This document shows, piece after piece, positions 8,188 to 52,079 of a DNA stretch of 64,000 nt; position 1 is the first letter of the stretch, and each line of letters begins with the position of its first letter. Location: assembly GCF_003019035.1 (NCBI RefSeq), contig NZ_CP027447.1, one strand, 5' to 3'. The translations under genes were made by a program, and so were the position numbers. The notes under the pieces were generated by a model, which was not told the origin of the DNA, did no database searches, and saw only the letters and a list, made by a program, of their open reading frames with translations. Origin of the DNA: Escherichia coli. Its GTDB lineage: Bacteria > Pseudomonadota > Gammaproteobacteria > Enterobacterales > Enterobacteriaceae.

Positions 8188-8347
<160 letters not shown>

Positions 8348-19426: not shown

Positions 19427-19477
19427 ATCCGGTGCGCCGTAAAACCCCGTCCTTCAGGGCGGGGATATAAGGCGCGG

Positions 19478-19917
19478 TTTTGCACCTGACCAGGTGTTTG
19501 CTGTTGTTCAATGTATTGGCGGATGACGGATATTGGCGCACCTCCGCAGCTACTGGCAAAATAGCCAGGACTCCACAAAACGCCTTTGTAGTAATACCTG
19601 ACTGCAATATCTGGTCGATCTCGTCGCAGTAACCTACCCGATACGCCTTTGAGGCTGTTTACCAGACTGGATATCGCCAGTTTGGGAGGTTAGTTAATTA
19701 ACAAATGGACGTGATCTGGTTCGCCATCCATTTCAACCAGTTCAGCTTCAAAATCAGCACATACATTTGAAAAGTAAGTGCGTAGTTTTTCTGTCGCGTC
19801 ATGGTCAAAAATCTGGCGTCGGTATCTGGTGACAAAGACCAGATGAACATGCATCAGGAAAACACAATGCCTTCCACGCCGGATATCGGTTTCTTTTTTC
19901 ACAGACCAAAGTATCAT
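19478..19917 (-). pseudogene. insP: IS200-type Y1 (HuH) transposase tnpA, disrupted by frameshifts
   Basis: N-terminal 75 codons (19693-19917) carry HVHLVFVTRYRR and the HuH motif DHVHLLI and then stop; downstream minus-strand frames give SLVNSLKGVSGRLLRRD and LWSPGYFASSCGGAPISVIRQYIEQQ in two different frames. Confidence 0.7.
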
Positions 19918-19924
19918 TTGACCT

Positions 19925-21133
19925 GTGAAACGATTACAGGCATTTAAATTCCAGTTAAGACCAGGTGGTCAACAGGAGTGTGAAATGAGGCGCTTCGCAG
20001 GCGCATGTCGTTTCGTTTTCAATCGTGCTCTGGCACGTCAGAATGAGAATCATGAGGCCGGTAATAAATACATCCCTTACGGGAAAATGGCTTCCTGGCT
20101 GGTTGAGTGGAAAAATGCCACTGAAACGCAATGGCTTAAAGATTCTCCCTCACAGCCATTGCAACAGTCACTGAAAGACCTTGAGCGGGCTTACAAAAAC
20201 TTCTTCCGGAAGCGGGCTGCTTTTCCCCGATTCAAAAAGCGGGGACAGAATGATGCATTCCGCTACCCGCAGGGCGTTAAGCTCGATCAGGAAAACAGCC
20301 GTATTTTTCTGCCGAAACTGGGCTGGATGCGCTACCGGAATAGCCGTCAGGTCACGGGTGTTGTGAAAAATGTCACTGTCAGCCAGTCCTGCGGTAAGTG
20401 GTACATCAGTATTCAGACAGAAAGTGAAGTATCCACTCCGGCTCACCCTTCAGCATCAATGGTCGGGCTGGATGCTGGCGTGGCTAAACTCGCCACGCTG
20501 TCAGATGGCACAGTCTTTGAGCCTGTAAACAGTTTTCAGAAAAACCAGAAGACGCTGGCGAGACTTCAGCGACAGTTAAGCCGCAAGGTCAAATTCAGCA
20601 ACAACTGGCAGAAGCAGAAACGCAAAATACAGCGACTGCATTCCTGTATCGCAAATATCCGCAGGGACTACCTTCACAAAGTCACAACGGCCGTCAGCAA
20701 AAACCACGCAATGATAGTCATTGAGGATTTGAAGGTCAGCAACATGTCAAAGTCAGCAGCGGGTACGGTCAGCCAGCCGGGGCGCAATGTCCGGGCAAAA
20801 TCAGGTTTAAACCGTTCGATACTGGATCAGGGCTGGTATGAAATGCGCCGCCAGCTTGAGTACAAGCAGCTCTGGCGTGGCGGTCAGGTGCTTGCTGTTC
20901 CGCCAGCGTATACAAGCCAGCGTTGCGCGTACTGTGGTCATACAGCGAAAGAGAACCGCCTGTCACAAAGTAAATTCAGATGCCAGGTATGTGGATATAC
21001 AGCGAACGCCGATGTAAATGGCGCTCGTAACATTTTAGCGGCGGGGCACGCCGTTCTTGCCTGTGGAGAGATGGTGCAGTCAGGCCGCCCGTTGAAGCAG
21101 GAACCCACCGAAATGATTCAGGCGACAGCCTGA
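19925..21133 (+). CDS. insQ: TnpB-family (OrfB/IS605-type) protein, RuvC-like RNA-guided nuclease family
   Basis: 402-aa intact ORF; N-terminal FKFQLRPGG...RFVFNRAL motif and C-terminal zinc-finger-like CAYCGH/CQVCG cysteine pairs typical of TnpB. Confidence 0.85.
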
Positions 21134-21172
21134 ACGTAGCAGGGATCCACGTCCTTCAGGGCGTGGAGGATG

Positions 21173-22348
21173 TCAATATCGGTTTCTGTCAGCGATTAAA
21201 TTCAACACCACGTAACAAACGCCTCCGGCAATTAATCCCCAAAACGCAGAACCAATCCCGGCCAGCGTCAATCCACTTGCCGTTACCAGAAATGCCACCA
21301 CCGCCGCGTCGCGCTCACGCTCATTATGCAGCGCCTGATACAAACTGCCGCCAATGGTACTCAACAGCGCCAGACCTGCCAGCATCTGGATCCAACTTAC
21401 GGGCAGGGCAGCCATCATCCCGGTAATGGCACTACCAAACAGACCTGCGAGCAAATAGAAAATGCCTGCAACGGCAGCGGCCAGCCAACGTTGATCTTTA
21501 TCCGGATGCGCTTCCGGGCTTTGGCAAATAGCCGCGGTGATTGCCGCAATACCGACGGAATAAACGCCGAAAGGGGAAAAAACCAGTGCCAGCAATCCAG
21601 TAAATACAATTAATGGCGAAACAGGAGCCGAATATCCGGCGGCTTTCATTGCTGCGATACCCGGTGCGTTTTGCGATGCCATCGTCACCAGAAAAAGGGG
21701 GAGTGCAACGCTCAGGCTGTGAGCAAACGAAAAATCAGGGCTAATATAAGTGGGGAGAACGGGTTTAAAGACAACATCAGTTGTGACAACGTCACCTTGC
21801 GCGATAACGATCACGACCCCAATAATCATCGCGGCAATTACCGCATAGCGCGGCGCAACGGCCCTGGTTGCCAGCCATACCAGCAACATACTGCCACACA
21901 ACGTAAATTGACCATCCAGGCTCGCAAACGCCTGTAAACCAAAGCGTAATAAAATCCCGGCAAGCATTGCCGCCGCAAGCGAGTGCGGAATAATGCGCAT
22001 CAGACGAGCAAAGAGTCCCGTTATGCCGCAGAGGACTATTAACGCGTTGGTGACAATAAAAACGCCGATGGTTTCGTTAAGTGTTAGTCCCTGCAATCCG
22101 GTGACCAACAAAGCCGCGCCAGGCGTTGACCATGCGGTGAGAACAGGTACGCGATACCATAATGTCAGAGCCAGCGTACTGACGCCCATTACCAGCCCCA
22201 GCGCCGTCATCCAGCCAGAGATTTGTGCAGTGGTGGCTCCGGCGACAATCGCTGCTTGCCAGATTATTGCCGCTGAACTGGCGTAGCCAATTAATACCGC
22301 CAGAAACCCCGCCAGTAGCGTGGGTGGAGGAATAGAAAACAGACGCAT
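21173..22348 (-). CDS. ydcO: BenE-family (benzoate-type) membrane transporter
   Basis: ORF 21173-22471; start at MRLFSIPPPTLLAGF gives 391 aa; about 12 TM helices. Confidence 0.85.
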   Translation of the reverse strand: MRLFSIPPPTLLAGFLAVLIGYASSAAIIWQAAIVAGATTAQISGWMTALGLVMGVSTLALTLWYRVPVLTAWSTPGAALLVTGLQGLTLNETIGVFIVTNALIVLCGITGLFARLMRIIPHSLAAAMLAGILLRFGLQAFASLDGQFTLCGSMLLVWLATRAVAPRYAVIAAMIIGVVIVIAQGDVVTTDVVFKPVLPTYISPDFSFAHSLSVALPLFLVTMASQNAPGIAAMKAAGYSAPVSPLIVFTGLLALVFSPFGVYSVGIAAITAAICQSPEAHPDKDQRWLAAAVAGIFYLLAGLFGSAITGMMAALPVSWIQMLAGLALLSTIGGSLYQALHNERERDAAVVAFLVTASGLTLAGIGSAFWGLIAGGVCYVVLNLIADRNRY

Positions 22349-23048: not shown

Positions 23049-25010
23049 GTGACCGTATCTTCTCATCGTCTTGAACTGTTAAGTCCGGCACGCGATGCCG
23101 CCATTGCCCGCGAAGCTATTTTGCACGGTGCCGATGCTGTTTATATCGGCGGCCCTGGTTTTGGTGCCCGTCATAATGCCAGTAATAGCCTGAAAGATAT
23201 TGCCGAGCTGGTGCCGTTTGCCCATCGTTATGGTGCAAAAATTTTCGTCACGCTTAACACCATTTTGCATGATGATGAGCTGGAACCTGCGCAACGGCTG
23301 ATTACCGACCTCTACCAGACCGGCGTCGATGCGCTGATTGTTCAGGATATGGGGATTCTGGAACTTGATATTCCGCCGATTGAACTGCACGCCAGTACGC
23401 AGTGCGACATTCGCACGGTAGAAAAAGCGAAGTTCCTCTCTGATGTTGGCTTCACGCAGATTGTGCTGGCGCGAGAGCTGAATCTTGAGCAGATCCGCGC
23501 GATTCACCAGGCCACGGACGCGACCATTGAATTCTTTATTCATGGCGCACTGTGCGTGGCCTATTCGGGTCAGTGCTACATTTCTCATGCGCAAACAGGG
23601 CGTAGCGCCAACCGTGGCGATTGCTCGCAGGCGTGCCGTTTGCCATACACATTGAAAGACGATCAGGGGCGGGTGGTTTCCTATGAAAAACATCTGCTGT
23701 CGATGAAAGATAACGATCAGACTGCCAACCTCGGCGCGCTGATTGATGCTGGCGTACGCTCCTTCAAGATTGAAGGGCGTTACAAAGATATGAGCTACGT
23801 GAAGAATATCACCGCCCATTATCGCCAGATGCTGGATGCCATTATTGAAGAACGTGGCGATCTGACGCGTGCTTCATCAGGTCGTACTGAACATTTCTTT
23901 GTTCCATCGACGGAAAAGACTTTCCACCGTGGTAGCACAGATTATTTTGTGAATGCCCGTAAAGGCGATATTGGCGCGTTCGATTCGCCGAAATTTATCG
24001 GCCTGCCGGTGGGCGAAGTATTGAAAGTAGCGAAAGATCATATTGATGTTGCCGTTACCGAGCCACTGGCAAATGGCGATGGCCTGAACGTGATGATTAA
24101 ACGTGAAGTCGTCGGTTTTCGTGCCAATACGGTCGAGAAAACCGGAGAAAATCAGTACCGCGTCTGGCCCAATGAAATGCCAGCAGATTTGCACAAAATT
24201 CGCCCGCATCACCCACTAAACCGTAATCTTGATCATAACTGGCAGCAGGCACTGACAAAAACCTCCAGCGAACGTCGGGTGGCGGTAGACATTGAACTGG
24301 GCGGCTGGCAGGAACAACTGATTCTGACCCTCACCAGTGAAGAGGGTGTCAGCATCACGCATACGCTGGACGGGCAGTTCGACGAAGCCAATAACGCCGA
24401 AAAAGCAATGAACAATCTAAAGGATGGTCTGGCAAAACTGGGGCAAACCATCTATTACGCCCGCGATGTGCAAATTAATTTGCCGGGTGCGCTGTTTGTA
24501 CCAAACAGTCTGTTAAACCAGTTCCGCCGTGAAGCCGCCGACATGCTGGATGCTGCACGTCTTGCCGGTTACCAGCGGGGCAGCCGTAAACCGGTTGCTG
24601 ATCCTGCGCCGGTTTATCCGCAAACGCATCTGAGTTTCCTCGCGAACGTATACAACCAGAAAGCGCGTGAATTTTATCATCGCTATGGTGTGCAACTGAT
24701 TGACGCGGCGTATGAGGCACATGAAGAGAAGGGCGAAGTCCCGGTGATGATCACCAAGCATTGTCTGCGCTTTGCCTTCAATCTGTGCCCGAAACAGGCG
24801 AAAGGCAATATCAAAAGCTGGAAGGCGACGCCAATGCAACTGGTTAACGGCGATGAAGTATTAACGCTAAAGTTTGATTGCCGCCCATGCGAGATGCACG
24901 TCATTGGCAAAATCAAAAATCACATACTGAAAATGCCGTTACCGGGAAGCGTAGTGGCATCCGTAAGTCCGGATGATCTGCTGAAAACATTGCCGAAGCG
25001 AAAAGGGTAA
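23049..25010 (+). CDS. rlhA: Peptidase U32-family protein YdcP/RlhA
   Basis: ORF 23007-25010; probable GTG start at 23049 gives 653 aa; U32 family signature. Confidence 0.85.
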   Translation: MTVSSHRLELLSPARDAAIAREAILHGADAVYIGGPGFGARHNASNSLKDIAELVPFAHRYGAKIFVTLNTILHDDELEPAQRLITDLYQTGVDALIVQDMGILELDIPPIELHASTQCDIRTVEKAKFLSDVGFTQIVLARELNLEQIRAIHQATDATIEFFIHGALCVAYSGQCYISHAQTGRSANRGDCSQACRLPYTLKDDQGRVVSYEKHLLSMKDNDQTANLGALIDAGVRSFKIEGRYKDMSYVKNITAHYRQMLDAIIEERGDLTRASSGRTEHFFVPSTEKTFHRGSTDYFVNARKGDIGAFDSPKFIGLPVGEVLKVAKDHIDVAVTEPLANGDGLNVMIKREVVGFRANTVEKTGENQYRVWPNEMPADLHKIRPHHPLNRNLDHNWQQALTKTSSERRVAVDIELGGWQEQLILTLTSEEGVSITHTLDGQFDEANNAEKAMNNLKDGLAKLGQTIYYARDVQINLPGALFVPNSLLNQFRREAADMLDAARLAGYQRGSRKPVADPAPVYPQTHLSFLANVYNQKAREFYHRYGVQLIDAAYEAHEEKGEVPVMITKHCLRFAFNLCPKQAKGNIKSWKATPMQLVNGDEVLTLKFDCRPCEMHVIGKIKNHILKMPLPGSVVASVSPDDLLKTLPKRKG

Positions 25011-25101
25011 AACGCCAGTTTTCGGGTTACTCACCACTCATCAAATCTGCATGATATTGCCTGGCGGGTAAGGCGTCATGCCGCATCCGGCAACAAATGA
25101 C

Positions 25102-25332
25102 TCAACGCTGTCCCGCTTCTGGTTTGCGCGATTTTTGCCAGTAAAAATGCTCGCGCAAACCTTCCGCCGACTCTTCCGCCACAGCACGCAATTCATCGCT
25201 GTCCGCTTCATGACGCAGCTGATGATCCACATTCTTTACCCACATAAATTCATGTCCTTTGTGCCCTGCCATGAGTTGTCCTGAGAACAGTGCACACGTT
25301 AATAAGACAACCGATAACGCCTTCGAAAACAT
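25102..25332 (-). CDS. yncJ: Small secreted protein YncJ (DUF2554)
   Basis: 76-aa ORF with N-terminal signal peptide (MFSKALSVVLLTCALFSGQLMA). Confidence 0.8.
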   Translation of the reverse strand: MFSKALSVVLLTCALFSGQLMAGHKGHEFMWVKNVDHQLRHEADSDELRAVAEESAEGLREHFYWQKSRKPEAGQR

Positions 25333-25493
25333 CCCGCCACCTTTTTCTAACCTTTTGCCGCTATGATGCCAATCGTTTCTTGAGGTTATTATTCAGTTTT
25401 GCAAATTAGCGCAAAGAAATTCTGGAATCTTCCTTCCTGATTTTGCATTGCATTCTGCCGTTGCGGCGATTTAGTGCTATTTTCGAGCAAATT

Positions 25494-25574
25494 ACACACG
25501 GAGGTAAAAAAATCGACGCCGTCCAGCTCGCGGCTAAGGCGCTTGGCAAAGAGTTATCACTGGTGATGGTTTAA
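25494..25574 (+). pseudogene. hicB: 3'-terminal remnant of an XRE-HTH antitoxin gene (hicB-like); no hicA and no hicB body present
   Basis: In-frame tail ...KKIDAVQLAAKALGKELSLVMV* ending at 25574 in the yncJ-ydcR intergenic region, with no start codon or N-terminal domain upstream. Confidence 0.45.
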
Positions 25575-25652
25575 TTACAGTTAACGAAAAGTTGTCATTT
25601 TTAACAACTGATATAGACTGCCGAATCATCTGCACATAATTACGATTCGATA

Positions 25653-27059
25653 ATGAAAAAATACCAGCAGCTTGCAGAACAATTACGCGAGCAGATTGCG
25701 TCGGGTATCTGGCAACCCGGCGATCGTTTGCCTTCGTTGCGTGACCAGGTGGCGCTTTCTGGCATGAGCTTTATGACCGTGAGCCATGCCTATCAGTTGC
25801 TCGAAAGTCAGGGATATATTATCGCGCGACCGCAGTCGGGTTATTACGTTGCGCCACAGGCAATAAAAATGCCGAAAGCGCCAGTCATTCCAGTCACTCG
25901 AGATGAAGCAGTCGATATCAACACCTATATTTTTGATATGTTGCAGGCCAGTCGCGATCCGTCGGTAGTTCCGTTTGCCTCGGCCTTTCCCGACCCGCGA
26001 CTTTTCCCCCTCCAACAACTAAACCGCTCGCTGGCGCAGGTAAGCAAAACCGCCACAGCGATGAGCGTGATTGAAAACTTACCGCCAGGAAACGCAGAAC
26101 TGCGTCAGGCTATTGCTCGTCGCTATGCCTTACAGGGCATCACTATTTCTCCAGATGAAATTGTCATTACCGCCGGGGCGTTAGAGGCATTAAACCTCAG
26201 TTTGCAAGTGGTAACTGAACCGGGCGATTGGGTGATAGTAGAGAATCCTTGTTTCTACGGCGCTTTGCAGGCGCTGGAGCGGTTACGGCTGAAGGCGTTA
26301 TCGGTGGCGACGGACGTTAAAGAAGGGATCGATCTTCAGGCGCTGGAACTGGCGTTGCAGGAGTATCCGGTGAAAGCGTGCTGGCTGATGACTAATAGCC
26401 AGAATCCACTCGGATTTACCTTAACACCGCAAAAAAAAGCACAACTGGTGGCGTTGCTCAATCAGTACAACGTAACGTTGATTGAAGATGACGTTTACAG
26501 CGAACTTTATTTTGGACGGGAAAAACCGCTGCCTGCGAAAGCGTGGGATCACCACGATGGTGTTTTGCATTGCTCTTCGTTTTCGAAATGTCTGGTGCCT
26601 GGTTTTCGTATTGGTTGGGTCGCCGCCGGAAAACATGCACGTAAAATTCAACGCTTGCAGTTGATGAGTACGCTTTCCACCAGCTCACCGATGCAGCTTG
26701 CGCTGGTGGATTACCTTTCTACTCGCCGATACGATGCTCATCTTCGTCGTCTGCGTCGCCAGCTTGCGGAACGTAAACAACGCGCCTGGCAGGCTTTGCT
26801 GCGTTATCTGCCTGCGGAAGTCAAAATTCATCACAATGACAGCGGTTATTTTCTCTGGCTGGAGCTCCCCGAGCCGTTAGATGCAGGAGAATTAAGCCTG
26901 GTGGCACTGACGCATCATATCAGTATTGCGCCGGGTAAAATGTTTTCTACCGGTGAAAACTGGTCACGTTTTTTTCGTTTTAATACCGCGTGGCAGTGGG
27001 GAGAACGTGAAGAACAGGCGGTAAAACAATTAGGCAAACTTATTCAAGAACGGCTGTAA
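25653..27059 (+). CDS. ydcR: GntR/MocR-family regulator with aminotransferase-like domain
   Basis: 468-aa ORF; N-terminal GntR HTH, C-terminal PLP-fold domain. Confidence 0.88.
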   Translation: MKKYQQLAEQLREQIASGIWQPGDRLPSLRDQVALSGMSFMTVSHAYQLLESQGYIIARPQSGYYVAPQAIKMPKAPVIPVTRDEAVDINTYIFDMLQASRDPSVVPFASAFPDPRLFPLQQLNRSLAQVSKTATAMSVIENLPPGNAELRQAIARRYALQGITISPDEIVITAGALEALNLSLQVVTEPGDWVIVENPCFYGALQALERLRLKALSVATDVKEGIDLQALELALQEYPVKACWLMTNSQNPLGFTLTPQKKAQLVALLNQYNVTLIEDDVYSELYFGREKPLPAKAWDHHDGVLHCSSFSKCLVPGFRIGWVAAGKHARKIQRLQLMSTLSTSSPMQLALVDYLSTRRYDAHLRRLRRQLAERKQRAWQALLRYLPAEVKIHHNDSGYFLWLELPEPLDAGELSLVALTHHISIAPGKMFSTGENWSRFFRFNTAWQWGEREEQAVKQLGKLIQERL

Positions 27060-27303
27060 TAGCGTTTAATTTAATTCCTCTCAGGATGGGTAATATGAAT
27101 TTCGAATAGCAGTCATATTTCCTAACTCCTTGTCTATACTCCAGAAGATAACCTTACAGAGGGCATAATGCGCGGTAGCTCACAACCTGATTAAATTTTC
27201 TCAGGGGCGAAGGTGTGCCTGCTAGCCGCCGTCTATGGTTAAACAAGGAGATATTTTTACGGCACGGCGGCTGAACAATTAATTACGACAGGAGTAAGAC
27301 CTT

Positions 27304-33038: not shown

Positions 33039-33212
33039 ATGTCTCTCTATCAACACATGCTTGTTTTTTATGCGGTTATGGCAGCAATCGCATTTCTTAT
33101 CACCTGGTTTCTTTCTCACGATAAGAAACGCATCCGTCTCTTAAGCGCCTTTCTGGTGGGGGCAACATGGCCGATGAGTTTCCCGGTGGCGCTGTTATTT
33201 TCACTGTTTTAA
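33039..33212 (+). CDS. ortT: Small membrane toxin OrtT (57 aa)
   Basis: ORF 32964-33212; start at MSLYQHMLVFYAVMAAIAFLITWFLSHDKK gives 57 aa; two predicted TM segments. Confidence 0.8.
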   Translation: MSLYQHMLVFYAVMAAIAFLITWFLSHDKKRIRLLSAFLVGATWPMSFPVALLFSLF

Positions 33213-35714: not shown

Positions 35715-35912
35715 AGATACGACGGCGGCATAAAGCCGCCATAAAAATCCAGGCAAAAAGCTTATTTTCAGCTTTAATTAACTAACCACGTCATTGTTCT
35801 GCTGCTAATAACAACAAAGGTGAGTGGTTTATGATTATTCACTTTAATACACCAGGTGAACTCCTTCTGCCATGCAGGCAGGGTTGGACAGAAAACACGC
35901 GAAGGAATTAAA

Positions 35913-36578
35913 ATGCCTGGAACGGGAAAAATGAAACATGTCAGTTTGACTCTGCAGGTTGAGAACGACCTGAAACATCAGCTTAGTATTGGCGCATTAA
36001 AACCTGGCGCACGCCTGATTACTAAAAATCTGGCGGAGCAATTAGGTATGAGTATTACACCTGTGCGTGAAGCATTATTACGTCTGGTTTCGGTGAATGC
36101 GCTTTCTGTCGCACCAGCGCAAGCATTTACAGTTCCGGAAGTGGGGAAACGTCAATTAGACGAAATCAATCGGATCCGCTACGAGCTGGAATTAATGGCA
36201 GTTACTCTGGCTGTTGAAAACCTCACCCCGCAAGACCTGGCGGAACTCCAGGAATTGCTTGAGAAATTACAGCAGGCGCAAGAAAAGGGCGACATGGAAC
36301 GAATCATTAATGCGAGCAGGCTATTTCGCTTAGCAATTTATCATCGTTCAAATATGCCCATTCTGTGTGAGATGATTGAGCAACTGTGGGTCAGGATGGG
36401 ACCTGGTTTACATTATCTCTATGAAGCGATTAATCCAGCGGAATTACGGGAGCGTATAGCAAACTATCATCTATTACTCGCCACGCTAAAAGCAAAAGAC
36501 AAAGAGGGATGCAGACATTGTCTTGCTGAAATTATGCAACAGAATATTGCTATTCTATACCAGCAATACAATCGTTAA
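35913..36578 (+). CDS. mcbR: GntR-family transcriptional regulator
   Basis: ORF 35856-36578; start at MPGTGKMKHVSL gives 221 aa; GntR HTH plus FCD domain. Confidence 0.88.
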   Translation: MPGTGKMKHVSLTLQVENDLKHQLSIGALKPGARLITKNLAEQLGMSITPVREALLRLVSVNALSVAPAQAFTVPEVGKRQLDEINRIRYELELMAVTLAVENLTPQDLAELQELLEKLQQAQEKGDMERIINASRLFRLAIYHRSNMPILCEMIEQLWVRMGPGLHYLYEAINPAELRERIANYHLLLATLKAKDKEGCRHCLAEIMQQNIAILYQQYNR

Positions 36579-43623: not shown

Positions 43624-45732
43624 ATGTCAACCGGATTACGTTTCACGCTGGAAGTGGACGGCCTGCCACCGGACGCGTTTGCGGTGGTTTCCTTTCATCT
43701 CACCCAGTCACTCTCTTCACTTTTTTCCCTTGACCTTTCTCTGGTCAGTCAGCAGTTTCTCTCCCTTGAATTTGCGCAGGTGCTGGACAAAATGGCCTAC
43801 CTGACGGTATGGCAGGGCGATGACGTACAGCGCCGGGTGAAAGGCGTGGTGACCTGGTTTGAACTCGGGGAGAACGACAAAAACCAGATGCTGTACAGCA
43901 TAAAGGTGCGCCCGCCGCTGTGGCGGGCAGGACTGCGTCAGAACTTCCGTATCTTCCAGAACGAGGACATCAGAAGCATCCTCGGCACCATACTGCAGGA
44001 AAATGACGTCACGGAGTGGAGTCCGCTGTTCAGCGAGCCGCATCCTTCCCGTGAGTTTTGTGTCCAGTACGGCGAAACCGATTACGATTTCCTGTGCCGG
44101 ATGGCGGCGGAGGAAGGCATCTTCTTTTATGAGGAGCACGCGCAAAAAAGTACCGACCAGAGCCTGGTCCTGTGCGACACCGTGCGTTATCTGCCGGAGT
44201 CCTTTGAGATCCCCTGGAATCCGAACACCCGTACCGAGGTGAGCACCCTATGCATCAGCCAGTTCCTCTACAGCGCACAAATCCGCCCATCTTCCGTGGT
44301 GACCAAAGACTACACCTTTAAACGACCCGGCTGGGCAGGGCGTTTTGATCAGGAAGGCCAGCACCAGGATTACCAGCGCACACAGTATGAAGTGTATGAC
44401 TACCCCGGACGTTTCAAGGGTGCCCACGGGCAGAACTTTGCCTGCTGGCAGATGGATGGCTGGCGAAACAACGCAGAAGTGGCGCGCGGAACAAGCCGTT
44501 CGCCGGAGATATGGCCGGGACGGCGAATTGCGCTGACGGGGCATCCGCAGGCGAACCTGAACCGGGAATGGCAGGTGGTGGCAAGTGAACTGCACGGCGA
44601 GCAGCCGCAGGCGGTGCCGGGACGCAGTGGTTCAGGTACCACGCTGAATAACCACTTTGCGGTAATACCGGCAGACAGAACATGGCGGCCACAGCCGTTG
44701 CTGAAACCGCTGGTGGACGGCCCGCAGAGCGCCGTCGTGACGGGACCGGCAGGAGAAGAAATCTTCTGTGATGAACATGGCCGCGTGCGGGTGAAATTTA
44801 ACTGGGACCGTTATAACCCGTCAAACCAGGACAGTTCATGCTGGATCCGTGTGGCACAGGCGTGGGCAGGCACCGGGTTTGGTAACCTGGCGATACCGCG
44901 TGTGGGTCAGGAGGTCATTGTGGACTTCCTCAACGGCGATCCGGACCAGCCGATTATTATGGGGCGCACCTACCACCAGGAAAACCGCACCCCCGGCAGC
45001 CTGCCGGGAACAAAGACGCAAATGACCATTCGTTCAAAAACCTATAAGGGCAGCGGGTTTAATGAACTGAAGTTTGACGATGCGACAGGGAAAGAACAGG
45101 TCTACATCCACGCGCAGAAGAACATGAACACCGAGGTGCTGAATAACCGCACCACGGATGTGATAAACAACCATGCTGAGACCATCGGCAACAATCAGGT
45201 GATTGCGGTTACCAACAATCAGATACAGACGGTGGGCGTTAACCAGATAGAGACGGTGGGCAGTAACCAGATCATTAAAGTGGGCTCTGTTCAGGTGGAA
45301 ACGATTGGACTTGTTCGTGCGCTGACTGTGGGCGTGGCGTATCAGACGACGGTAGGTGGCATTATGAACACCTCGGTGGCCCTGATGCAGTCCTCGCAGA
45401 TCGGTTTGCATAAATCGTTGATGGTCGGGCTGGGTTATGACGTCAAAGTCGGAAATAACGTTACCTTCACCGTTGGTAAAACGAAAAAGGATGATACCGG
45501 GCAGACCGCGATTTACTCCGCCGGTGAGCATCTGGAACTCTGCTGTGGTAAGGCAAGGCTGGTGCTGACTAAGGACGGACAAATTTTTCTCAACGGCACA
45601 AAAATTCATTTGCAGGGTAAGGAGCAGGTTAATGGTGACTCACTGTTGATTAACTGGAACTGTGCAGCCTCGAAATCCCCACCGAAGACCCCTGATGAAA
45701 AGCAGGATACGCCGGATATGAGAGAGTACTGA
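43624..45732 (+). CDS. vgrG: Type VI secretion spike protein VgrG (orphan, no other T6SS core genes in window)
   Basis: ORF 43588-45732; start at MSTGLRFTLEVDGL with SD ggagg upstream; gp27/gp5-like N-terminus and C-terminal beta-helical repeats (VIAVTNNQIQTVGVNQIETVGSNQIIKVG). Confidence 0.9.
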   Translation: MSTGLRFTLEVDGLPPDAFAVVSFHLTQSLSSLFSLDLSLVSQQFLSLEFAQVLDKMAYLTVWQGDDVQRRVKGVVTWFELGENDKNQMLYSIKVRPPLWRAGLRQNFRIFQNEDIRSILGTILQENDVTEWSPLFSEPHPSREFCVQYGETDYDFLCRMAAEEGIFFYEEHAQKSTDQSLVLCDTVRYLPESFEIPWNPNTRTEVSTLCISQFLYSAQIRPSSVVTKDYTFKRPGWAGRFDQEGQHQDYQRTQYEVYDYPGRFKGAHGQNFACWQMDGWRNNAEVARGTSRSPEIWPGRRIALTGHPQANLNREWQVVASELHGEQPQAVPGRSGSGTTLNNHFAVIPADRTWRPQPLLKPLVDGPQSAVVTGPAGEEIFCDEHGRVRVKFNWDRYNPSNQDSSCWIRVAQAWAGTGFGNLAIPRVGQEVIVDFLNGDPDQPIIMGRTYHQENRTPGSLPGTKTQMTIRSKTYKGSGFNELKFDDATGKEQVYIHAQKNMNTEVLNNRTTDVINNHAETIGNNQVIAVTNNQIQTVGVNQIETVGSNQIIKVGSVQVETIGLVRALTVGVAYQTTVGGIMNTSVALMQSSQIGLHKSLMVGLGYDVKVGNNVTFTVGKTKKDDTGQTAIYSAGEHLELCCGKARLVLTKDGQIFLNGTKIHLQGKEQVNGDSLLINWNCAASKSPPKTPDEKQDTPDMREY

Positions 45733-45798
45733 TCCCGTACCTGTTCAGTATTCAGTAACAAACAAGCATTAAAAATAAACAGAAGAAGGAATTGAATC

Positions 45799-45815
45799 AT
45801 GAGCGGAAAACCAGC
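45799..45815 (+). pseudogene. 5' stub of an rhs gene (start codon plus about 5 codons) truncated by an H-repeat element
   Basis: atgagcggaaaacc matches the first 14 nt of the intact rhs at 53550 (atgagcggaaaacccgcg...), followed directly by the H-repeat left end cagggaaagatca at 45816. Confidence 0.7.
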
Positions 45816-47106
45816 CAGGGAAAGATCATCAGAAGTACACTTTTTGTACTAAACAATTCGCATTTTATGTTTAAAAATTGAGATATTCCTCATTACCTGA
45901 AGCTGTTTTTTATTGCTTATACATGATCAAATACTCCTTACATAATTAAGGAGAACAAAATGGAACTTAAAAAATTGATGGAGCATATTTCTATTATCCC
46001 CGATTACAGACAAGCCTGGAAAGTGGAACATAAATTATCGGACATTCTACTGTTGACTATTTGTGCCGTTATTTCTGGTGCAGAAGGCTGGGAAGATATA
46101 GAGGATTTTGGGGAAACACATCTCGATTTTTTGAAGCAATATGGTGATTTTGAAAATGGTATTCCTGTTCACGATACCATTGCCAGAGTTGTATCCTGTA
46201 TCAGTCCTGCAAAATTTCACGAGTGCTTTATTAACTGGATGCGTGACTGCCATTCTTCAGATGATAAAGGCGTCATTGCAATTGATGGAAAAACGCTCCG
46301 GCACTCTTATGACAAGAGTCGCCGCAGGGGAGCGATTCATGTCATTAGTGCGTTCTCAACAATGCACAGTCTGGTCATCGGACAGATCAAGACGGATGAG
46401 AAATCCAATGAGATTACAGCTATCCCAGAACTTCTTAACATGCTGGATATTAAAGGAAAAATCATCACAACTGATGCGATGGGTTGCCAGAAAGATATTG
46501 CAGAGAAGATACAAAAACAGGGAGGTGATTATTTATTCGCTGTAAAAGGAAATCAGGGGCGGCTTAATAAAGCCTTTGAGGAAAAATTTCCACTGAAAGA
46601 ATTAAATAATCCAGAGCATGACAGTTACGCAATGAGTGAAAAGAGTCACGGCAGAGAAGAAATCCGTCTTCACATTGTTTGCGATGTCCCTGATGAACTT
46701 ATTGATTTCACGTTTGAATGGAAAGGTCTGAAGAAATTATGCGTGGCAGTCTCCTTTCGGTCAATAATAGCAGAACAAAAGAAAGAGCCAGAAATGACGG
46801 TCAGATATTATATCAGTTCTGCTGATTTAACCGCAGAGAAGTTCGCCACAGCAATCCGAAACCACTGGCACGTGGAGAATAAGCTGCACTGGCGTCTGGA
46901 CGTGGTAATGAATGAAGACGACTGCAAAATAAGAAGAGGAAACGCCGCAGAATTATTTTCAGGGATACGGCACATCGCTATTAATATTTTAACGAATGAT
47001 AAGGTATTCAAGGCAGGGTTAAGACGTAAGATGCGAAAAGCTGCCATGGACAGAAACTATCTCGCGTCAGTCCTTGCGGGGAGCGGGCTTTCGTAATCTT
47101 TCCCTG
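45816..47106 (+). mobile_element. H-repeat (ISAs1-family) element, copy A, 1291 bp
   Basis: Terminal inverted repeats cagggaaaga (left) and tctttccctg (right); encodes a 378-aa transposase; nearly identical to copies at 50594-51884 and 58348-59638. Confidence 0.85.
45960..47096 (+). CDS. ISAs1-family transposase (H repeat-associated protein, YdcC/YhhI-like)
   Basis: 378-aa ORF with SD aaggag; three near-identical copies in the window. Confidence 0.88.
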
Positions 47107-48889
47107 GCTGCTGGAGTTCACGCGCGACCGCCTGCACCGGGAGACGGTGCGCAGCTTCGGCAGCATGGCAGGCAGTAATGCCGCATACGAACTGACCAGC
47201 ACATACACCCCCGCAGGCCAGTTACAGAGCCAGCACCTGAACAGCCTGGTATATGACCGTGACTACGGGTGGAGTGACAACGGCGACCTGGTGCGCATCA
47301 GCGGCCCGCGACAGACGCGGGAATACGGCTACAGCGCCACGGGCAGGCTGGAGAGTGTGCGCACCCTCGCACCGGACCTGGACATCCGCATCCCGTATGC
47401 CACGGACCCGGCGGGCAACCGGCTGCCGGACCCGGAGCTGCACCCGGACAGTACACTCACAGTGTGGCCGGATAACCGAATCACCGAAGACGCGCACTAC
47501 CTGTACCGTTACGATGAATACGGCAGGCTGACGGAGAAGACGGACCGCATCCCGGCGGGTGTGATACGGACGGACGACGAGCGGACCCACCACTACCGCT
47601 ACGACAGCCAGCACCGCCTGGTGTTCCACACGCGGATACAGCATGGCGAGCCACTGGTCGAGAGCCGCTACCTCTACGACCCGCTGGGACGGCGAATGGC
47701 AAAACGGGTCTGGCGGCGGGAGCGTGACCTGACGGGGTGGATGTCGCTGTCGCGTAAACCGGAGGAGACATGGTACGGGTGGGACGGCGACAGGCTGACG
47801 ACGGTGCAGACTGACACCACACGTATCCAGACGGTCTACCAGCCGGGGAGCTTCACGCCGCTCATCCGTATCGAGACAGAGAACGGCGAACGGGAGAAAA
47901 TGCAACGCCGCAGCCTGGCGGAGAAGTTACAGTCGGAAGGGAGTGAGGACGGTCACGGTGTGGTGTTCCCGGCTGAGCTGGTGAGGATGCTGGACAGGCT
48001 GGAGGAAGAAATCCGGGCAGACCGCGTGAGCAGTGAAAGCCGGGCGTGGCTTGCGCAGTGCGGGCTGACGGTGGAGCAACTGGCCAGACAGGTGGAGCCG
48101 GAATACACACCGGCGCGAAAAGTTCATTTTTACCACTGCGACCACCGGGGCCTGCCGCTGGCGCTCATCAGCGAAGACGGCAATACGGTGTGGAGCGGGG
48201 AGTATGATGAATGGGGCAACCAGCTTAATGAGGAGAACCCGCATCATGTGTATCAGCCATACCGCCTGCCGGGGCAGCAGTATGATGAGGAGTCGGGGCT
48301 GTACTATAACCGCAACCGGTACTATGATCCGTTGCAGGGGAGGTATATTACCCAGGATCCGATTGGGCCGGTGGGGGGGTGGAATCCCTATAGTTATGTG
48401 CTTATTAATCCAGCCCAGTTTATTGACCCAACAGGTTTAACTCAAGAGGACAATTGGACCTATGGTGAGGTAGGTAATAGCTGTGTTACGAGTCAACGCG
48501 ATTTTACTCCCCCGCCCGGACTTGCGGATATGAAAGCCAGCATTGGCGCTGCCTGCTCAAGAAACAATGCTTCCAGAAACTGCCACCCCGTAGATGGTAG
48601 TAATGCTTCTGCACCATCGGATAAAGCCGCATGGGAAAATATTCAAAATGCGACAAATGGTAAAGATTTATCTGGTGGTGGAAATATGTTTTGTGTAGGA
48701 AATGAGGACTGTGCGGTTGTTCATAGCTGTCGTGAAATAGTTAATGCTCGACACCCGGCAGGACGAGTGCGTGAACGTGTAACTCCGTTAACAACGTCAG
48801 GAACAGCAACGCTCAATGGAACAACAGTTTACTTTTATAATGATCCCCGGAATGGCAATTGTCCTGCTCACGAATATATTCCTCAATAA
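47107..48889 (+). pseudogene. rhsE: Orphan Rhs 3' fragment (rhsE-like): distal core repeats plus a divergent C-terminal toxin tip; no native start codon
   Basis: Begins abruptly at the right end of H-repeat copy A; 47107-48355 is collinear, without indels, with 55994-57242 of the intact rhs (about 93% amino-acid identity); DPIGP motif at 48356-48370; unique C-terminal about 173 codons. Confidence 0.8.
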
Positions 48890-48939
48890 AGAAAAGTGGC
48901 CAGACTAAGCTCTAGCCACATTTTTTGGAGATCCTTTTC

Positions 48940-49563
48940 ATGAAAAGGTTTTTTATAACATGTTGCGTTATGACATTATTTTTATTTGTTAAATGTAAAG
49001 CAGCGTGTGTAACTTCCTTATATGAGGTTCAGCAATCGCTCTTTACATACATTTATTTGATTAGACAAGACCCTGTTCATTTTGATTCATATATTAAGAA
49101 TGTGCATAACGAATTAAAAATATTCCATGATATTGATAAAGCAATGAATATAGCCTCAGATATGGTCAAAATTATTGATATAAAGACCCGTTTATCATTT
49201 AATAATGATTTATATATATTACAAGGGGAACGACAGTATGCAATAGTTAAGAGTGAAGGGGAAAGTAGTCAATTAAAATCATCAGCATTTATCATATCTA
49301 ATTACCCACTATTTAAAAACAAAGTTCTGTTAATTTTATCCGCTACTAGTCCCGTTCAGTTGGTTATATTGTCTTTTGATCAATGTCTTAATGTGGAGGT
49401 GTTATTTGATTCAATGTCTCCAGTTTTCGCTAAGTATAGAGAAGATATTAGTGCAACATTACCATTATGGAAGGTTATTTTGACAAAAAATGATATAGAA
49501 TTATATGAGTACCATAGAACAAATCCATACTCACTTAACAAATTATTGAGCATGTCAAAATAA
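48940..49563 (+). CDS. Putative immunity protein for the orphan Rhs-CT (AT-rich, signal-peptide-like N-terminus)
   Basis: ORF 48925-49563 (TTG) or ATG at 48940 (MKRFFITCCVMTLFLFVKCKAAC...); directly downstream of the toxin tip; low GC. Confidence 0.6.
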   Translation: MKRFFITCCVMTLFLFVKCKAACVTSLYEVQQSLFTYIYLIRQDPVHFDSYIKNVHNELKIFHDIDKAMNIASDMVKIIDIKTRLSFNNDLYILQGERQYAIVKSEGESSQLKSSAFIISNYPLFKNKVLLILSATSPVQLVILSFDQCLNVEVLFDSMSPVFAKYREDISATLPLWKVILTKNDIELYEYHRTNPYSLNKLLSMSK

Positions 49564-49748
49564 CGGTCAAGTATTCAACGTTGTAATATTATTCCTTTTG
49601 CTGAGTGTCTCGAACGGCTAAAGTTGACGTAAAATGCCACGTTTTGTGGGCAAACCGAATCGGTTAAAAAGCATGGTCCGGGAAAAGCTTAACATCAGCG
49701 CTATCGGTGCCAAATGTGCAGCAGGCCTTTCCAGCCTGATTACCAGGG

Positions 49749-50004
49749 CAGGGCGGGATCGTGAATATTGTGATGCATATCACATGAACTCCTGGTTTTA
49801 ACTTATTATTTCGGTTAAAATTTAACCACTGAAATCATTAGGATTCGAGCAAAGGGACGGCATATGGATATTCAAAATTTACTGGATTATATTTCTATAA
49901 TTCCTGATTATCGTCAGCAAGGGAAAATAAGGCATAAATTGTCAGATATTTTATTGCTCACTATATGTGCTATTATTGCCGGTTCTGATGAATGGGAGGA
50001 TATT
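49749..50004 (+). mobile_element. Truncated H-repeat variant (fragment D): left end plus first about 47 codons of transposase
   Basis: IR-like cagggcgggatcgtga at about 49749; ORF start 49864 ([48 protein letters not shown]) interrupted by the next element. Confidence 0.65.
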
Positions 50005-50593
50005 CAGGGCAAGATCATGAAAATCGTGATGTAAATCACAATTTTCAACCTGGCTTTAACTCCTTCAGGAGATTAAAATTTAACCTATGGAATAACTAAA
50101 AAGATAAAAAAGGACGCCAGATGAGTATTCAAAGTTTGCTTGATTATATTTCAGTGTTCCCTGATATACGACAACAAGGAAAGGTTAAACATAAATTATC
50201 TGATATTTTGTTTCTCACCGTATGTGCAGTAATTGCAGGTGCCGATGAGTGGCAGGAAATTGAAGATTTTGGACATGAAAGACTGGAATGGCTAAAGAAA
50301 TATGGTGATTTTGATAATGGCATTCCGGTCGATGACACCATTGCACGCGTTGTGAGTAACATTGACAGTTTGGCCTTTGAAAAGATGTTTATTGAATGGA
50401 TGCAGGAGTGCCATGAAATCACTGATGGTGAAATTATAGCAATAGATGGAAAGACCATAAGAGGCTCCTTTGATAAGGGAAAAAGGAAAGGAGCAATCCA
50501 TATGGTGAGTGCATTCTCGACTGAAAATGGTGTTGTACTGGGGCAGGTGAAAACGGAAGCCAAAAGTAATGAGATTACAGCCATTCCAGAGTT
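50005..50593 (+). mobile_element. Truncated H-repeat variant (fragment E) inserted into fragment D and itself cut by copy B
   Basis: Left end cagggcaagatca at 50005; transposase N-terminal 158 codons (ORF 50121..., diverged from copies A-C) ending where the copy B left IR starts at 50594. Confidence 0.7.
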
Positions 50594-51884
50594 CAGGGAA
50601 AGATCATCAGAAGTACACTTTTTGTACTAAACAATTCGCATTTTATGTTTAAAAATTGAGATATTCCTCATTACCTGAAGCTGTTTTTTATTGCTTATAC
50701 ATGATCAAATACTCCTTACATAATTAAGGAGAACAAAATGGAACTTAAAAAATTGATGGAACATATTTCTATTATCCCCGATTACAGACAAGCCTGGAAA
50801 GTGGAACATAAATTATCGGATATTCTACTGTTGACTATTTGTGCCGTTATTTCGGGTGCAGAAGGCTGGGAAGATATAGAGGATTTTGGGGAAACACATC
50901 TCGATTTTTTGAAGCAATATGGTGATTTTGATAATGGTATTCCTGTTCACGATACCATTGCCAGAGTTGTATCCTGTATCAGTCCTGCAAAATTTCACGA
51001 GTGCTTTATTAACTGGATGCGTGACTGCCATTCTTCAGATGATAAAGACGTCATCGCAATTGATGGAAAAACACTCCGGCATTCTTATGACAAGAGTCGC
51101 CGCAGGGGAGCGATTCATGTCATTAGTGCGTTCTCAACAATGCACAGTCTGGTCATCGGACAGATCAGGACGGATGAGAAATCCAATGAGATCACAGCTA
51201 TCCCTGAACTTCTTAACATGCTGGATATTAAAGGAAAAATTATCACAACTGATGCAATGGGTTGCCAGAAAGATATTGCAGAGAAGATACAAAAACAGGG
51301 CGGTGATTATTTATTCGCTGTAAAAGGAAATCAGGGTCGGCTAAATAAAGCCTTTGAGGAAAAATTCCCACTGAAAGAATTAAATAATCCAGAACATGAC
51401 AGTTACGCAATGAGTGAAAAGAGTCACGGCAGAGAAGAAATCCGTCTTCACATTGTTTGCGATGTCCCTGATGAACTTATTGATTTCACGTTTGAATGGA
51501 AAGGTCTGAAGAAATTATGCGTGGCAGTCTCCTTTCGGTCAATAATAGCAGAACAAAAGAAAGAGCCAGAAATGACGGTCAGATATTATATCAGTTCTGC
51601 TGATTTAACCGCAGAGAAGTTCGCCACAGCAATCCGAAACCACTGGCACGTGGAGAATAAGCTGCACTGGCGTCTGGACGTGGTAATGAATGAAGACGAC
51701 TGCAAAATAAGAAGAGGAAACGCCGCAGAATTATTTTCAGGGATACGGCACATCGCTATTAATATTTTGACGAATGATAAGGTATTCAAGGCAGGGTTAA
51801 GACGTAAGATGCGAAAAGCTGCCATGGACAGAAACTATCTCGCGTCAGTCCTTGCGGGGAGCGGGCTTTCGTAATCTTGCCCTG
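50594..51884 (+). mobile_element. H-repeat (ISAs1-family) element, copy B, 1291 bp
   Basis: Same IRs and length as copy A. Confidence 0.85.
50738..51874 (+). CDS. ISAs1-family transposase (H repeat-associated protein)
   Basis: 378-aa ORF, a few substitutions relative to copy A. Confidence 0.88.
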
Positions 51885-51896
51885 CTTTGTAATGGT

Positions 51897-52079
51897 ATGG
51901 CAGGAGGATATGAATTTGCAGTAAGTAAATTTGGTCAGTCGGCCTATGATGCCGCACAGGAAAAAGCATTAAATAACTATATGGAATTTGAAATGTTAGA
52001 TTTATTACAAAGCATGGGAGAGAATGTCAATCCAGATGAATATAAGCAGGCGCATGATAGAGTTGTTAATCCAAATTGA
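51897..52079 (+). CDS. Small ORF (60 aa) starting just outside the copy B right end; possibly the 3' remnant of a toxin tip
   Basis: ORF 51852-52079 begins inside the IS right end; first ATG outside the IS at 51897 (MAGGYEFAVSKFG...); stop overlaps the next gene. Confidence 0.35.
   Translation: MAGGYEFAVSKFGQSAYDAAQEKALNNYMEFEMLDLLQSMGENVNPDEYKQAHDRVVNPN

What the first reader, a model, noticed from the sequence alone, without database searches (positions are those of the whole stretch)
25333..25652. Only a 3' scar of a hicB-like gene lies between yncJ and ydcR
The intergenic region ends with an in-frame tail KKIDAVQLAAKALGKELSLVMV*, resembling the C-terminal end of an XRE-HTH antitoxin (recalled as the end of HicB), but there is no start codon, no N-terminal domain and no hicA. 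This looks like a deletion or incomplete acquisition of a type II toxin-antitoxin module.
Basis: inference. Interest (0 to 1): 0.45.

Follow-up and report, generated by a model that had tools for sequence, protein, structure and literature searches.

The report
Deletion scar of hicAB toxin-antitoxin locus
Between yncJ and ydcR this E. coli strain has lost the whole hicA toxin gene and all but the last 21 codons of the hicB antitoxin gene through one 618-base deletion, an ordinary and already annotated case of toxin-antitoxin gene decay.

Summary
Window 25333-25652 is the E. coli yncJ-hicA-hicB-ydcR intergenic region with a clean 618-bp deletion. Cutting 618 bp out of strain LR-28 reproduces the window base for base; LR-28's flanks are 100% identical to the window. 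What is lost: 45 bp upstream of hicA, all of hicA, the hicA-hicB spacer and hicB codons 1-117. What remains: hicB codons 118-138 plus the stop codon (25509-25574). The junction shows only 1 nt of microhomology.

"Deletion" is supported; "incomplete acquisition" is not. NCBI's PGAP pipeline already annotates the same scar as a HicB-family pseudogene in strain SCU-301, which is nearly identical to the window.

Among 5,426 complete E. coli genomes:
- 64 carry this junction.
- 1,094 carry a 445-bp deletion with the same left breakpoint.
- 811 carry a 22-bp frameshifting deletion in hicA.
- About 3,400 carry a full-length locus.

The junction occurs on four flank haplotypes that form a graded series. 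This favours one old deletion whose flanks were later overwritten by recombination up to the indel (about 0.7) over a recurrent identical deletion (about 0.25).

The scar is most likely non-functional. The finding is ordinary and of low interest.

The parts
25102..25332 (-). yncJ (DUF2554 family), the left neighbour, intact
   Evidence: 76-aa ORF. Annotated as yncJ, WP_000491567.1, in SCU-301, LR-28 and AF3.
25333..25508 (.). Retained 176 bp of the 221-bp yncJ-hicA spacer. It probably still holds the upstream hicAB promoter P1 (CRP-S/Sxy-dependent). It ends with GTAAA (25504-25508), the left part of the palindrome GTAAACA-CTAA-TGTTTAC seen in intact strains.
   Evidence: 209/209 identical to LR-28. 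The 221-bp spacer length in K-12 comes from PMC5120126. P1 upstream and P2/hicO downstream come from PMC11594946 and PMC10865869. Placing P1 inside this stretch, and equating the palindrome with hicO, is my inference and was not verified.
25507..25509 (.). Deletion junction. 618 bp are missing relative to LR-28. The breakpoint is ambiguous by 1 nt (a single A of microhomology) inside a run of 7 A.
   Evidence: Removing L001 2009-2626 or 2010-2627 both reproduce the window. See also the alignment.
25509..25574 (+). hicB 3' remnant: codons 118-138 (KIDAVQLAAKALGKELSLVMV) plus TAA. This is a pseudogene fragment.
   Evidence: PGAP annotates the same stretch in SCU-301, GF131, AF3 and AR_0077 as 'type II toxin-antitoxin system HicB family antitoxin, incomplete, missing N-terminus'.
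25575..25652 (.). Unchanged 78-bp hicB-ydcR spacer, with two overlapping sigma-70-like promoter matches (25592-25629) in front of ydcR.
   Evidence: The spacer is 78 bp in K-12 (PMC5120126). Consensus scan; these are pattern matches only.
25653..27059 (+). ydcR (MocR-type PLP-dependent regulator/aminotransferase), the right neighbour, intact
   Evidence: 468-aa ORF. WP_000760633.1 in both SCU-301 and LR-28.

Best explanation
The stretch is a dead remnant of the chromosomal hicAB type II toxin-antitoxin operon. One illegitimate 618-bp deletion, with 1 nt of microhomology, removed five things: the HicB-repressed promoter region just upstream of hicA, the hicA toxin gene, the hicA-hicB spacer, the N-terminal toxin-neutralising domain of HicB, and two thirds of its C-terminal helix-turn-helix. 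Only the last 21 codons and the stop codon remain. Toxin and antitoxin went together, so the loss is harmless to the cell, and the scar has no function of its own.

Shown: the deletion, its exact extent, and its presence in 64 of 5,426 complete genomes.

Inferred, about 0.7: this deletion allele arose once, probably from the common 445-bp-deletion allele by a second 173-bp deletion. It then persisted while homologous recombination with hicAB-positive strains replaced the DNA on both sides, with the exchanged tracts stopping at the indel where homology ends. That would explain why the window's scar looks 'fresh', at 100% identity to an intact hicB.

Inferred, not tested: the surviving upstream promoter P1 may now read through the scar into ydcR.
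For: - Exact reconstruction of the window from LR-28 minus 618 bp. LR-28 carries annotated hicA and hicB. Flanks are identical over 24117-27150.
- Domain content of what was lost: HicA_toxin, HicB_lk_antitox 3-67, HTH_3 88-134. The scar ORF has no Pfam hit.
- No hicA elsewhere in the window.
- The same junction is present in 64 genomes and is annotated there as a pseudogene.
- For a single origin followed by recombination: the junction sits on four haplotypes with a graded loss of AF3-like sequence to its right. AF3 keeps more than 0.8 kb, GF131 keeps it to 26343, AR_0077 only to 26057, and the window keeps none. In GF131, AR_0077 and the window the left flank is LR-28-like right up to the junction.
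- GF131 shares several other blocks with AF3, at 0-5 kb and 39-40 kb.
- The window itself is AF3-like at 28.0-28.7 kb.
- One nucleotide of microhomology gives no mechanism for exact recurrence.
- AF3 shares 25490C, 25538T and 25544A with the 445-bp-deletion strain JA0265.
Against: - The window's 3.5-kb haplotype is found at 100% in only two genomes, LR-28 (intact locus) and SCU-301 (deleted). The simplest reading of that pair alone is a recent deletion inside that haplotype.
- The single-origin model needs recombination tracts ending at the junction on both sides.
- The 445-bp and 618-bp deletions share a left breakpoint within 1 nt. This hints at a breakage hot spot and would make recurrence less improbable.
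- Promoter positions come from reviews, not from the primary paper, which is not held.
- No expression data were available.
Confidence: 0.9

Rival explanations
1. Recurrent deletion. The window's lineage lost the 618 bp independently and recently, at the same two nucleotides as the AF3-type strains, because the left breakpoint is a breakage or slippage hot spot. The breakpoint lies in the left arm of the palindrome upstream of hicA.
For: - LR-28 (intact) and SCU-301/window (deleted) are identical over about 3.5 kb apart from the indel, and this haplotype is seen in no other complete genome.
- The 445-bp and 618-bp deletions share the left breakpoint within 1 nt.
- Imperfect inverted repeats pair the left breakpoint with sequence near each right breakpoint: CGGAGGTAA/TTACCTTCG for the 445-bp deletion, and a 21-nt repeat at 71% for the 618-bp deletion.
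Against: - Only 1 nt of microhomology.
- Inverted repeats of that quality are expected by chance in 800 bp; 37 pairs were reported.
- The graded haplotype series AF3 > GF131 > AR_0077 > window is what stepwise recombination predicts.
- GF131 and AR_0077 already require tracts that end at the junction on the left side.
Confidence: 0.25
2. Incomplete acquisition. The hicAB module was never complete here, and only its 3' end integrated.
For: None beyond the bare absence of the 5' part.
Against: - The locus is syntenic in 5,416 of 5,426 genomes, and 4,248 cover at least 80% of the intact intergenic region.
- The scar is the exact in-frame end of the resident gene.
- A same-haplotype strain carries the intact operon.
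Confidence: 0.01
3. The remnant has acquired a function. Either the 43-aa TTG-initiated ORF (25443-25574) makes a small protein, or the deletion rewires ydcR by bringing promoter P1 618 bp closer and removing the HicB-repressed promoter P2.
For: - An in-frame ORF exists.
- No terminator-like site lies between the junction and ydcR.
- ydcR is listed as likely co-transcribed with hicAB in K-12 (PMC5120126).
Against: - No Pfam hit for the ORF, a weak TTG start, and I saw no Shine-Dalgarno-like sequence upstream of it.
- The scar carries 4 substitutions within 66 bp in the AF3-type carriers, so its sequence is not held constant.
- Other strains have deleted further into the remnant, and even into ydcR.
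Confidence: 0.05

Closest known systems
E. coli K-12 hicAB (hicA/yncN, hicB/ydcQ), a type II toxin-antitoxin operon between yncJ and ydcR
   Same: Same chromosomal slot and same flanking genes. The 176-bp upstream stretch, the 78-bp downstream spacer and the last 21 codons are those of this operon.
   Different: The toxin gene, the P2/operator region and hicB codons 1-117 are missing, so no toxin-antitoxin activity is possible.
PGAP pseudogene HHJ43_RS12480 in E. coli SCU-301 (NZ_CP051751.1): 'type II toxin-antitoxin system HicB family antitoxin, incomplete, missing N-terminus'
   Same: The same scar and the same junction. SCU-301 differs from the window at 4 positions in 44 kb.
   Different: The window is a very close relative rather than this assembly. 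For example, mcbR is intact in the window but has an internal stop in SCU-301.
The 445-bp deletion allele of hicAB, found in 1,094 complete genomes including IHE3034, UM146 and LF82
   Same: Same left breakpoint within 1 nt. It also removes hicA and the N-terminus of hicB.
   Different: It keeps 237 bp of hicB (the whole HTH part); the window keeps 66 bp. The window's allele is 17 times rarer.
Decay of chromosomal toxin-antitoxin systems in E. coli (Fiedoruk 2015 on distribution across phylogroups; Mine 2009 on ccdO157), as reviewed in PMC7167474
   Same: A chromosomal module at a conserved position, degenerating by deletion or inactivating mutation in part of the species.
   Different: Those papers were not read directly here. 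I found no held paper describing the hicAB allele series or this junction.

Membership tests
Functional HicAB type II toxin-antitoxin module | A hicA toxin gene (Pfam HicA_toxin, PF07927) next to the antitoxin gene | tested here: not met
   All of hicA lies inside the 618-bp deletion. tblastn with HicA against the whole window finds nothing better than E = 1.0.
Functional HicAB type II toxin-antitoxin module | HicB with the N-terminal toxin-binding domain (HicB_lk_antitox, PF15919) | tested here: not met
   The domain is at residues 3-67 in intact HicB. Codons 1-117 are deleted.
Functional HicAB type II toxin-antitoxin module | HicB C-terminal DNA-binding domain (HTH_3, PF01381) | tested here: not met
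   HTH_3 spans residues 88-134. Only 118-138 remain, and the 43-aa ORF gives no Pfam hit.
Functional HicAB type II toxin-antitoxin module | Autoregulated promoter P2 with the operator hicO upstream of hicA | tested here: inconclusive
   The 45 bp directly upstream of hicA are deleted. They include TGATATACT and the right half of the palindrome GTAAACA-N4-TGTTTAC. Equating these with P2 and hicO is my inference from review text; the primary paper is not held.
hicB pseudogene remnant at the yncJ-ydcR locus | Nucleotide identity to the hicB 3' end, in the syntenic position, without a start codon or N-terminal part | tested here: met
   66/66 nt identical to LR-28 hicB codons 118-138 plus the stop, and 78/78 nt for the downstream spacer. 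Same flanking genes. Annotated as such by PGAP in four strains.
Orphan antitoxin (complete antitoxin gene without its toxin) | An intact, translatable antitoxin gene | tested here: not met
   Only 21 of 138 codons remain.

The most novel reading that the evidence does not exclude
The left breakpoint lies inside the palindrome just upstream of hicA, which is probably the HicB operator. It may be a genuine deletion hot spot at which E. coli lineages have repeatedly and independently excised the toxin gene with nucleotide-identical junctions. On this reading the 445-bp deletion and at least two separate 618-bp events all start at the same base.
Probability: 0.2. Interest if true: 0.45.

Novelty: already known. 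Interest (0 to 1): 0.15.

Why it matters
For this window it matters little. It is a correctly spotted pseudogene scar that public annotation already flags.

The population picture has some practical value. hicA is deleted or frameshifted in at least 1,969 of 5,426 complete E. coli genomes (36%). Three lesions account for this: a 445-bp deletion, a 22-bp deletion and this 618-bp deletion. The K-12 hicAB system therefore cannot be assumed present when persistence, stress or phage-defence phenotypes are extrapolated to other strains, including the B2 strains sampled here (IHE3034, UM146, LF82).

The locus is also a clean natural example of a deletion allele that may have outlived its own flanks, because recombination tracts stop at the indel. 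A scar that looks young by sequence identity need not be young.

Tried and rejected
- Rfam scan of 24500-26500 at E <= 1. The only match was a sub-threshold eukaryotic snoRNA model (22.8 bits against a gathering score of 47), dismissed as chance.
- A 50-nt junction probe with megablast found nothing, because the A-run is masked and neither arm reaches the 28-nt word. An 87-nt asymmetric probe missed diverged carriers. A blastn word-11 search with E <= 1e-8 worked, and I reused that design for the other junctions.
- Search for a CRP-S motif (TGCGA-N6-TCGCA, up to 3 mismatches) to place promoter P1. There were no more matches than in shuffles and none in the spacer, so P1 is not located.
- The sigma-70 consensus scan of the intact spacer found no P1 or P2 candidate.
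- Direct and inverted repeat search for a mechanism behind the breakpoints gave only chance-level short repeats. The 25-nt direct repeat at 76% has the wrong spacing, 458 against 445 bp.
- I tested whether the high divergence of the AF3-type scar reflects pseudogene decay. It mostly does not. Most of those substitutions are also present in strains with a longer or intact hicB, such as JA0265, SMS-3-5 and BEC1. Only 25550G looks specific to the deletion carriers.
- The primary paper on the hicAB promoters (Turnbull and Gerdes 2017) is not held.
- I ran no further search on outgroups, because the within-species comparison already settles the direction of the change.

Full report
**What is in the window**

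The finding covers the whole 320-bp gap between yncJ (25102-25332, minus strand) and ydcR (25653-27059, plus strand); rlhA/ydcP lies upstream. A megablast of 25000-25760 against 5,426 complete E. coli genomes matched 5,416 of them. In most, the match splits into two pieces separated by annotated hicA and hicB. This is therefore the well-known yncJ-hicA-hicB-ydcR locus of E. coli. The K-12 layout is a 221-bp spacer, hicA, hicB and a 78-bp spacer (PMC5120126).

E. coli LR-28 (NZ_AP027512.1) has flanks 100% identical to the window, with intact hicA (177 bp) and hicB (417 bp). Removing 618 bp from LR-28, at either of two equivalent positions one base apart, reproduces the window exactly.

The deleted segment consists of:
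- 45 bp directly upstream of hicA;
- hicA itself (177 bp);
- the 45-bp hicA-hicB spacer;
- hicB codons 1-117 (351 bp).

What remains is:
- 176 bp of the upstream spacer (25333-25508);
- hicB codons 118-138 plus TAA (25509-25574);
- the unchanged 78-bp spacer in front of ydcR (25575-25652).

The tail KIDAVQLAAKALGKELSLVMV is identical to the end of HicB. The extra leading K read by the first stage comes from the fused upstream spacer.

Intact HicB has Pfam HicB_lk_antitox at residues 3-67 and HTH_3 at 88-134, and HicA matches HicA_toxin. The 43-aa mechanical ORF over the scar matches nothing. There is no hicA-like sequence elsewhere in the 64 kb. An Rfam scan found nothing credible.

**Direction of the change**

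The scar is the exact in-frame 3' end of a gene that a same-haplotype strain carries intact, at a locus syntenic across the species. This is a deletion, not a partial acquisition. The junction (GGAGGTAA|AAAAATCGACG, inside a run of seven A) has one nucleotide of microhomology. It is therefore an illegitimate deletion rather than slippage between repeats.

**Already annotated**

SCU-301 (NZ_CP051751.1) differs from the window at 4 positions in 44 kb. PGAP labels the same 78-bp stretch there as 'type II toxin-antitoxin system HicB family antitoxin, incomplete, missing N-terminus'. The window is a close relative rather than that assembly: mcbR is intact in the window but has an internal stop in SCU-301. 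Reviews already describe chromosomal toxin-antitoxin loci of E. coli as sitting at conserved positions and decaying by deletion or nonsense mutation (PMC7167474).

**The population picture**

I used 50-nt junction probes (blastn, E <= 1e-8) and the intact 938-bp intergenic region as queries against the 5,426 complete genomes.

| Allele | Genomes |
|---|---|
| This 618-bp junction | 64 |
| 445-bp deletion leaving 237 bp of hicB (IHE3034, UM146, LF82 and many others) | 1,094 |
| 22-bp deletion that frameshifts hicA, flanked by a TGCG repeat | 811 |
| Cover at least 80% of the intact region (includes the 811 above) | 4,248 |
| Full-length locus, by subtraction | about 3,437 |

Rarer states are:
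- further deletions inside the 237-bp remnant (ChlosBP-23-1);
- a deletion running into ydcR (OZ040994);
- a hicB 3' truncation by an ISApl1-associated insertion that leaves hicA intact (PE15).

hicA is thus lost or broken in at least 36% of complete genomes.

**One origin or several?**

The 618-bp junction sits on four flank haplotypes.

| Strain | Left flank | Right flank |
|---|---|---|
| AF3 | own variants, e.g. 25490C | diverged 'AF3-like' haplotype for more than 0.8 kb |
| GF131 | LR-28/SMS-3-5-like up to the junction | AF3-like to 26343 |
| AR_0077 | LR-28-like | AF3-like only from 25521 to 26057, then LR-28-like again |
| Window / SCU-301 | LR-28-like | LR-28-like |

I did not haplotype the other 60 junction carriers.

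Over 50 kb the region is strongly mosaic:
- LR-28 matches the window only from about 19 to 27.9 kb.
- GF131 matches the window from 5 kb exactly to the junction, and matches AF3 in several other blocks.
- The window itself is AF3-like at 28.0-28.7 kb.

The graded shrinking of AF3-like sequence towards the junction fits a single old deletion. On this reading, homologous exchange with hicAB-positive donors replaced the flanks, and the tracts ended where homology ends, at the indel. The near absence of microhomology points the same way.

Against this, the exact 3.5-kb window haplotype occurs only in LR-28 (intact) and SCU-301 (deleted). Taken alone, that pair looks like a fresh deletion. I put single origin plus recombination at about 0.7 and independent recurrence at about 0.25.

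**Relation to the 445-bp allele**

The two deletions share their left breakpoint within one base. AF3 shares 25490C on the left, and 25538T and 25544A on the right, with JA0265, a 445-bp-deletion strain. The 618-bp allele therefore probably arose from a 445-bp allele by a second 173-bp deletion.

Why that second deletion should start at the old junction is unexplained. Chance would give this roughly 1-2% of the time. The breakpoint lies in the left arm of GTAAACA-CTAA-TGTTTAC, 45 bp upstream of hicA. I take this palindrome to be the HicB operator hicO next to an extended -10 (TGATATACT), but I could not check that against the primary paper. Short inverted repeats link the left breakpoint to sequence near both right breakpoints, but repeats of that quality are expected by chance. 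A speculative alternative is that branch points at a heterology boundary fix the shared end during recombination. I have no test for this.

**Function**

Nothing suggests the scar does anything. The upstream promoter P1 (CRP-S/Sxy-dependent according to reviews) probably survives in 25333-25508. No terminator-like site precedes ydcR, so read-through into ydcR is possible but untested. I could not locate P1 by motif search.

**Verdict**

The feature is an ordinary, already annotated toxin-antitoxin deletion scar. Novelty: already known. Interest: low. The only mildly unusual points are the shared breakpoint and the fact that the deletion may be older than its flanks.

Noticed in passing
window 35856-36578: mcbR is an intact ORF in the window. 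The otherwise near-identical SCU-301 genome has mcbR annotated with an internal stop. This is one of only about 4 differences in 44 kb, so the window comes from a close relative rather than from that assembly.
   Followed up: partly
window ~19430-21180: An IS200/IS605-type insertion lies between ydcL and ydcO: insQ/TnpB, a 402-aa ORF at 19925-21133, plus a tnpA annotated as a pseudogene in SCU-301. It is present in SCU-301, LR-28 and GF131. It is absent from AF3, whose alignment to the window has a gap at exactly 19429-21176.
   Followed up: partly
L004 2055-2209 (WCHEC025985); 811 genomes: A 22-bp deletion in hicA, flanked by a 4-nt TGCG repeat, frameshifts the toxin and leaves hicB intact. 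It occurs in 811 of 5,426 complete E. coli genomes. This is an orphan-antitoxin state far commoner than the window's allele.
   Followed up: yes
L007 2944-3255 (strain PE15): The reverse case. hicB loses its C-terminus to an inserted segment that carries an ISApl1 transposase, while hicA stays intact. Presumably this is tolerated because the N-terminal domain of HicB neutralises the toxin.
   Followed up: no
L005 and L006 (ChlosBP-23-1, OZ040994): Strains with the 445-bp deletion have suffered further deletions. One removes 134 bp inside the remnant, with a 10-nt overlap between the aligned pieces. The other runs on into ydcR and removes its N-terminus.
   Followed up: partly
NZ_CP065615.1 (FDAARGOS_943), around 1193412-1193510: Only the first ~100 bp of ydcR match the window's query, and rlhA is annotated under the same short match. 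This suggests a larger rearrangement or deletion across yncJ and the hicAB site in this strain.
   Followed up: no
window 24014-24116 (inside rlhA): A cluster of 8 substitutions separates the window and SCU-301 from LR-28, GF131, AR_0077 and AF3, which mostly agree with one another here. It looks like a ~100-bp imported patch private to the window's lineage.
   Followed up: partly
window ~44000-52000: By comparison with the SCU-301 annotation, this end of the window holds a degraded type VI secretion tip region: tssI/VgrG with an internal stop, a frameshifted Rhs core protein, and ISAs1 and IS1 fragments. It is the only part where the window and SCU-301 differ noticeably.
   Followed up: no
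window ~33040-33210 and ~8190-8340 (coordinates estimated from SCU-301): Two other small toxin genes lie in the same window: the orphan toxin ortT and the type I toxin hokB. In AF3, ortT is truncated by an IS1 insertion.
   Followed up: no
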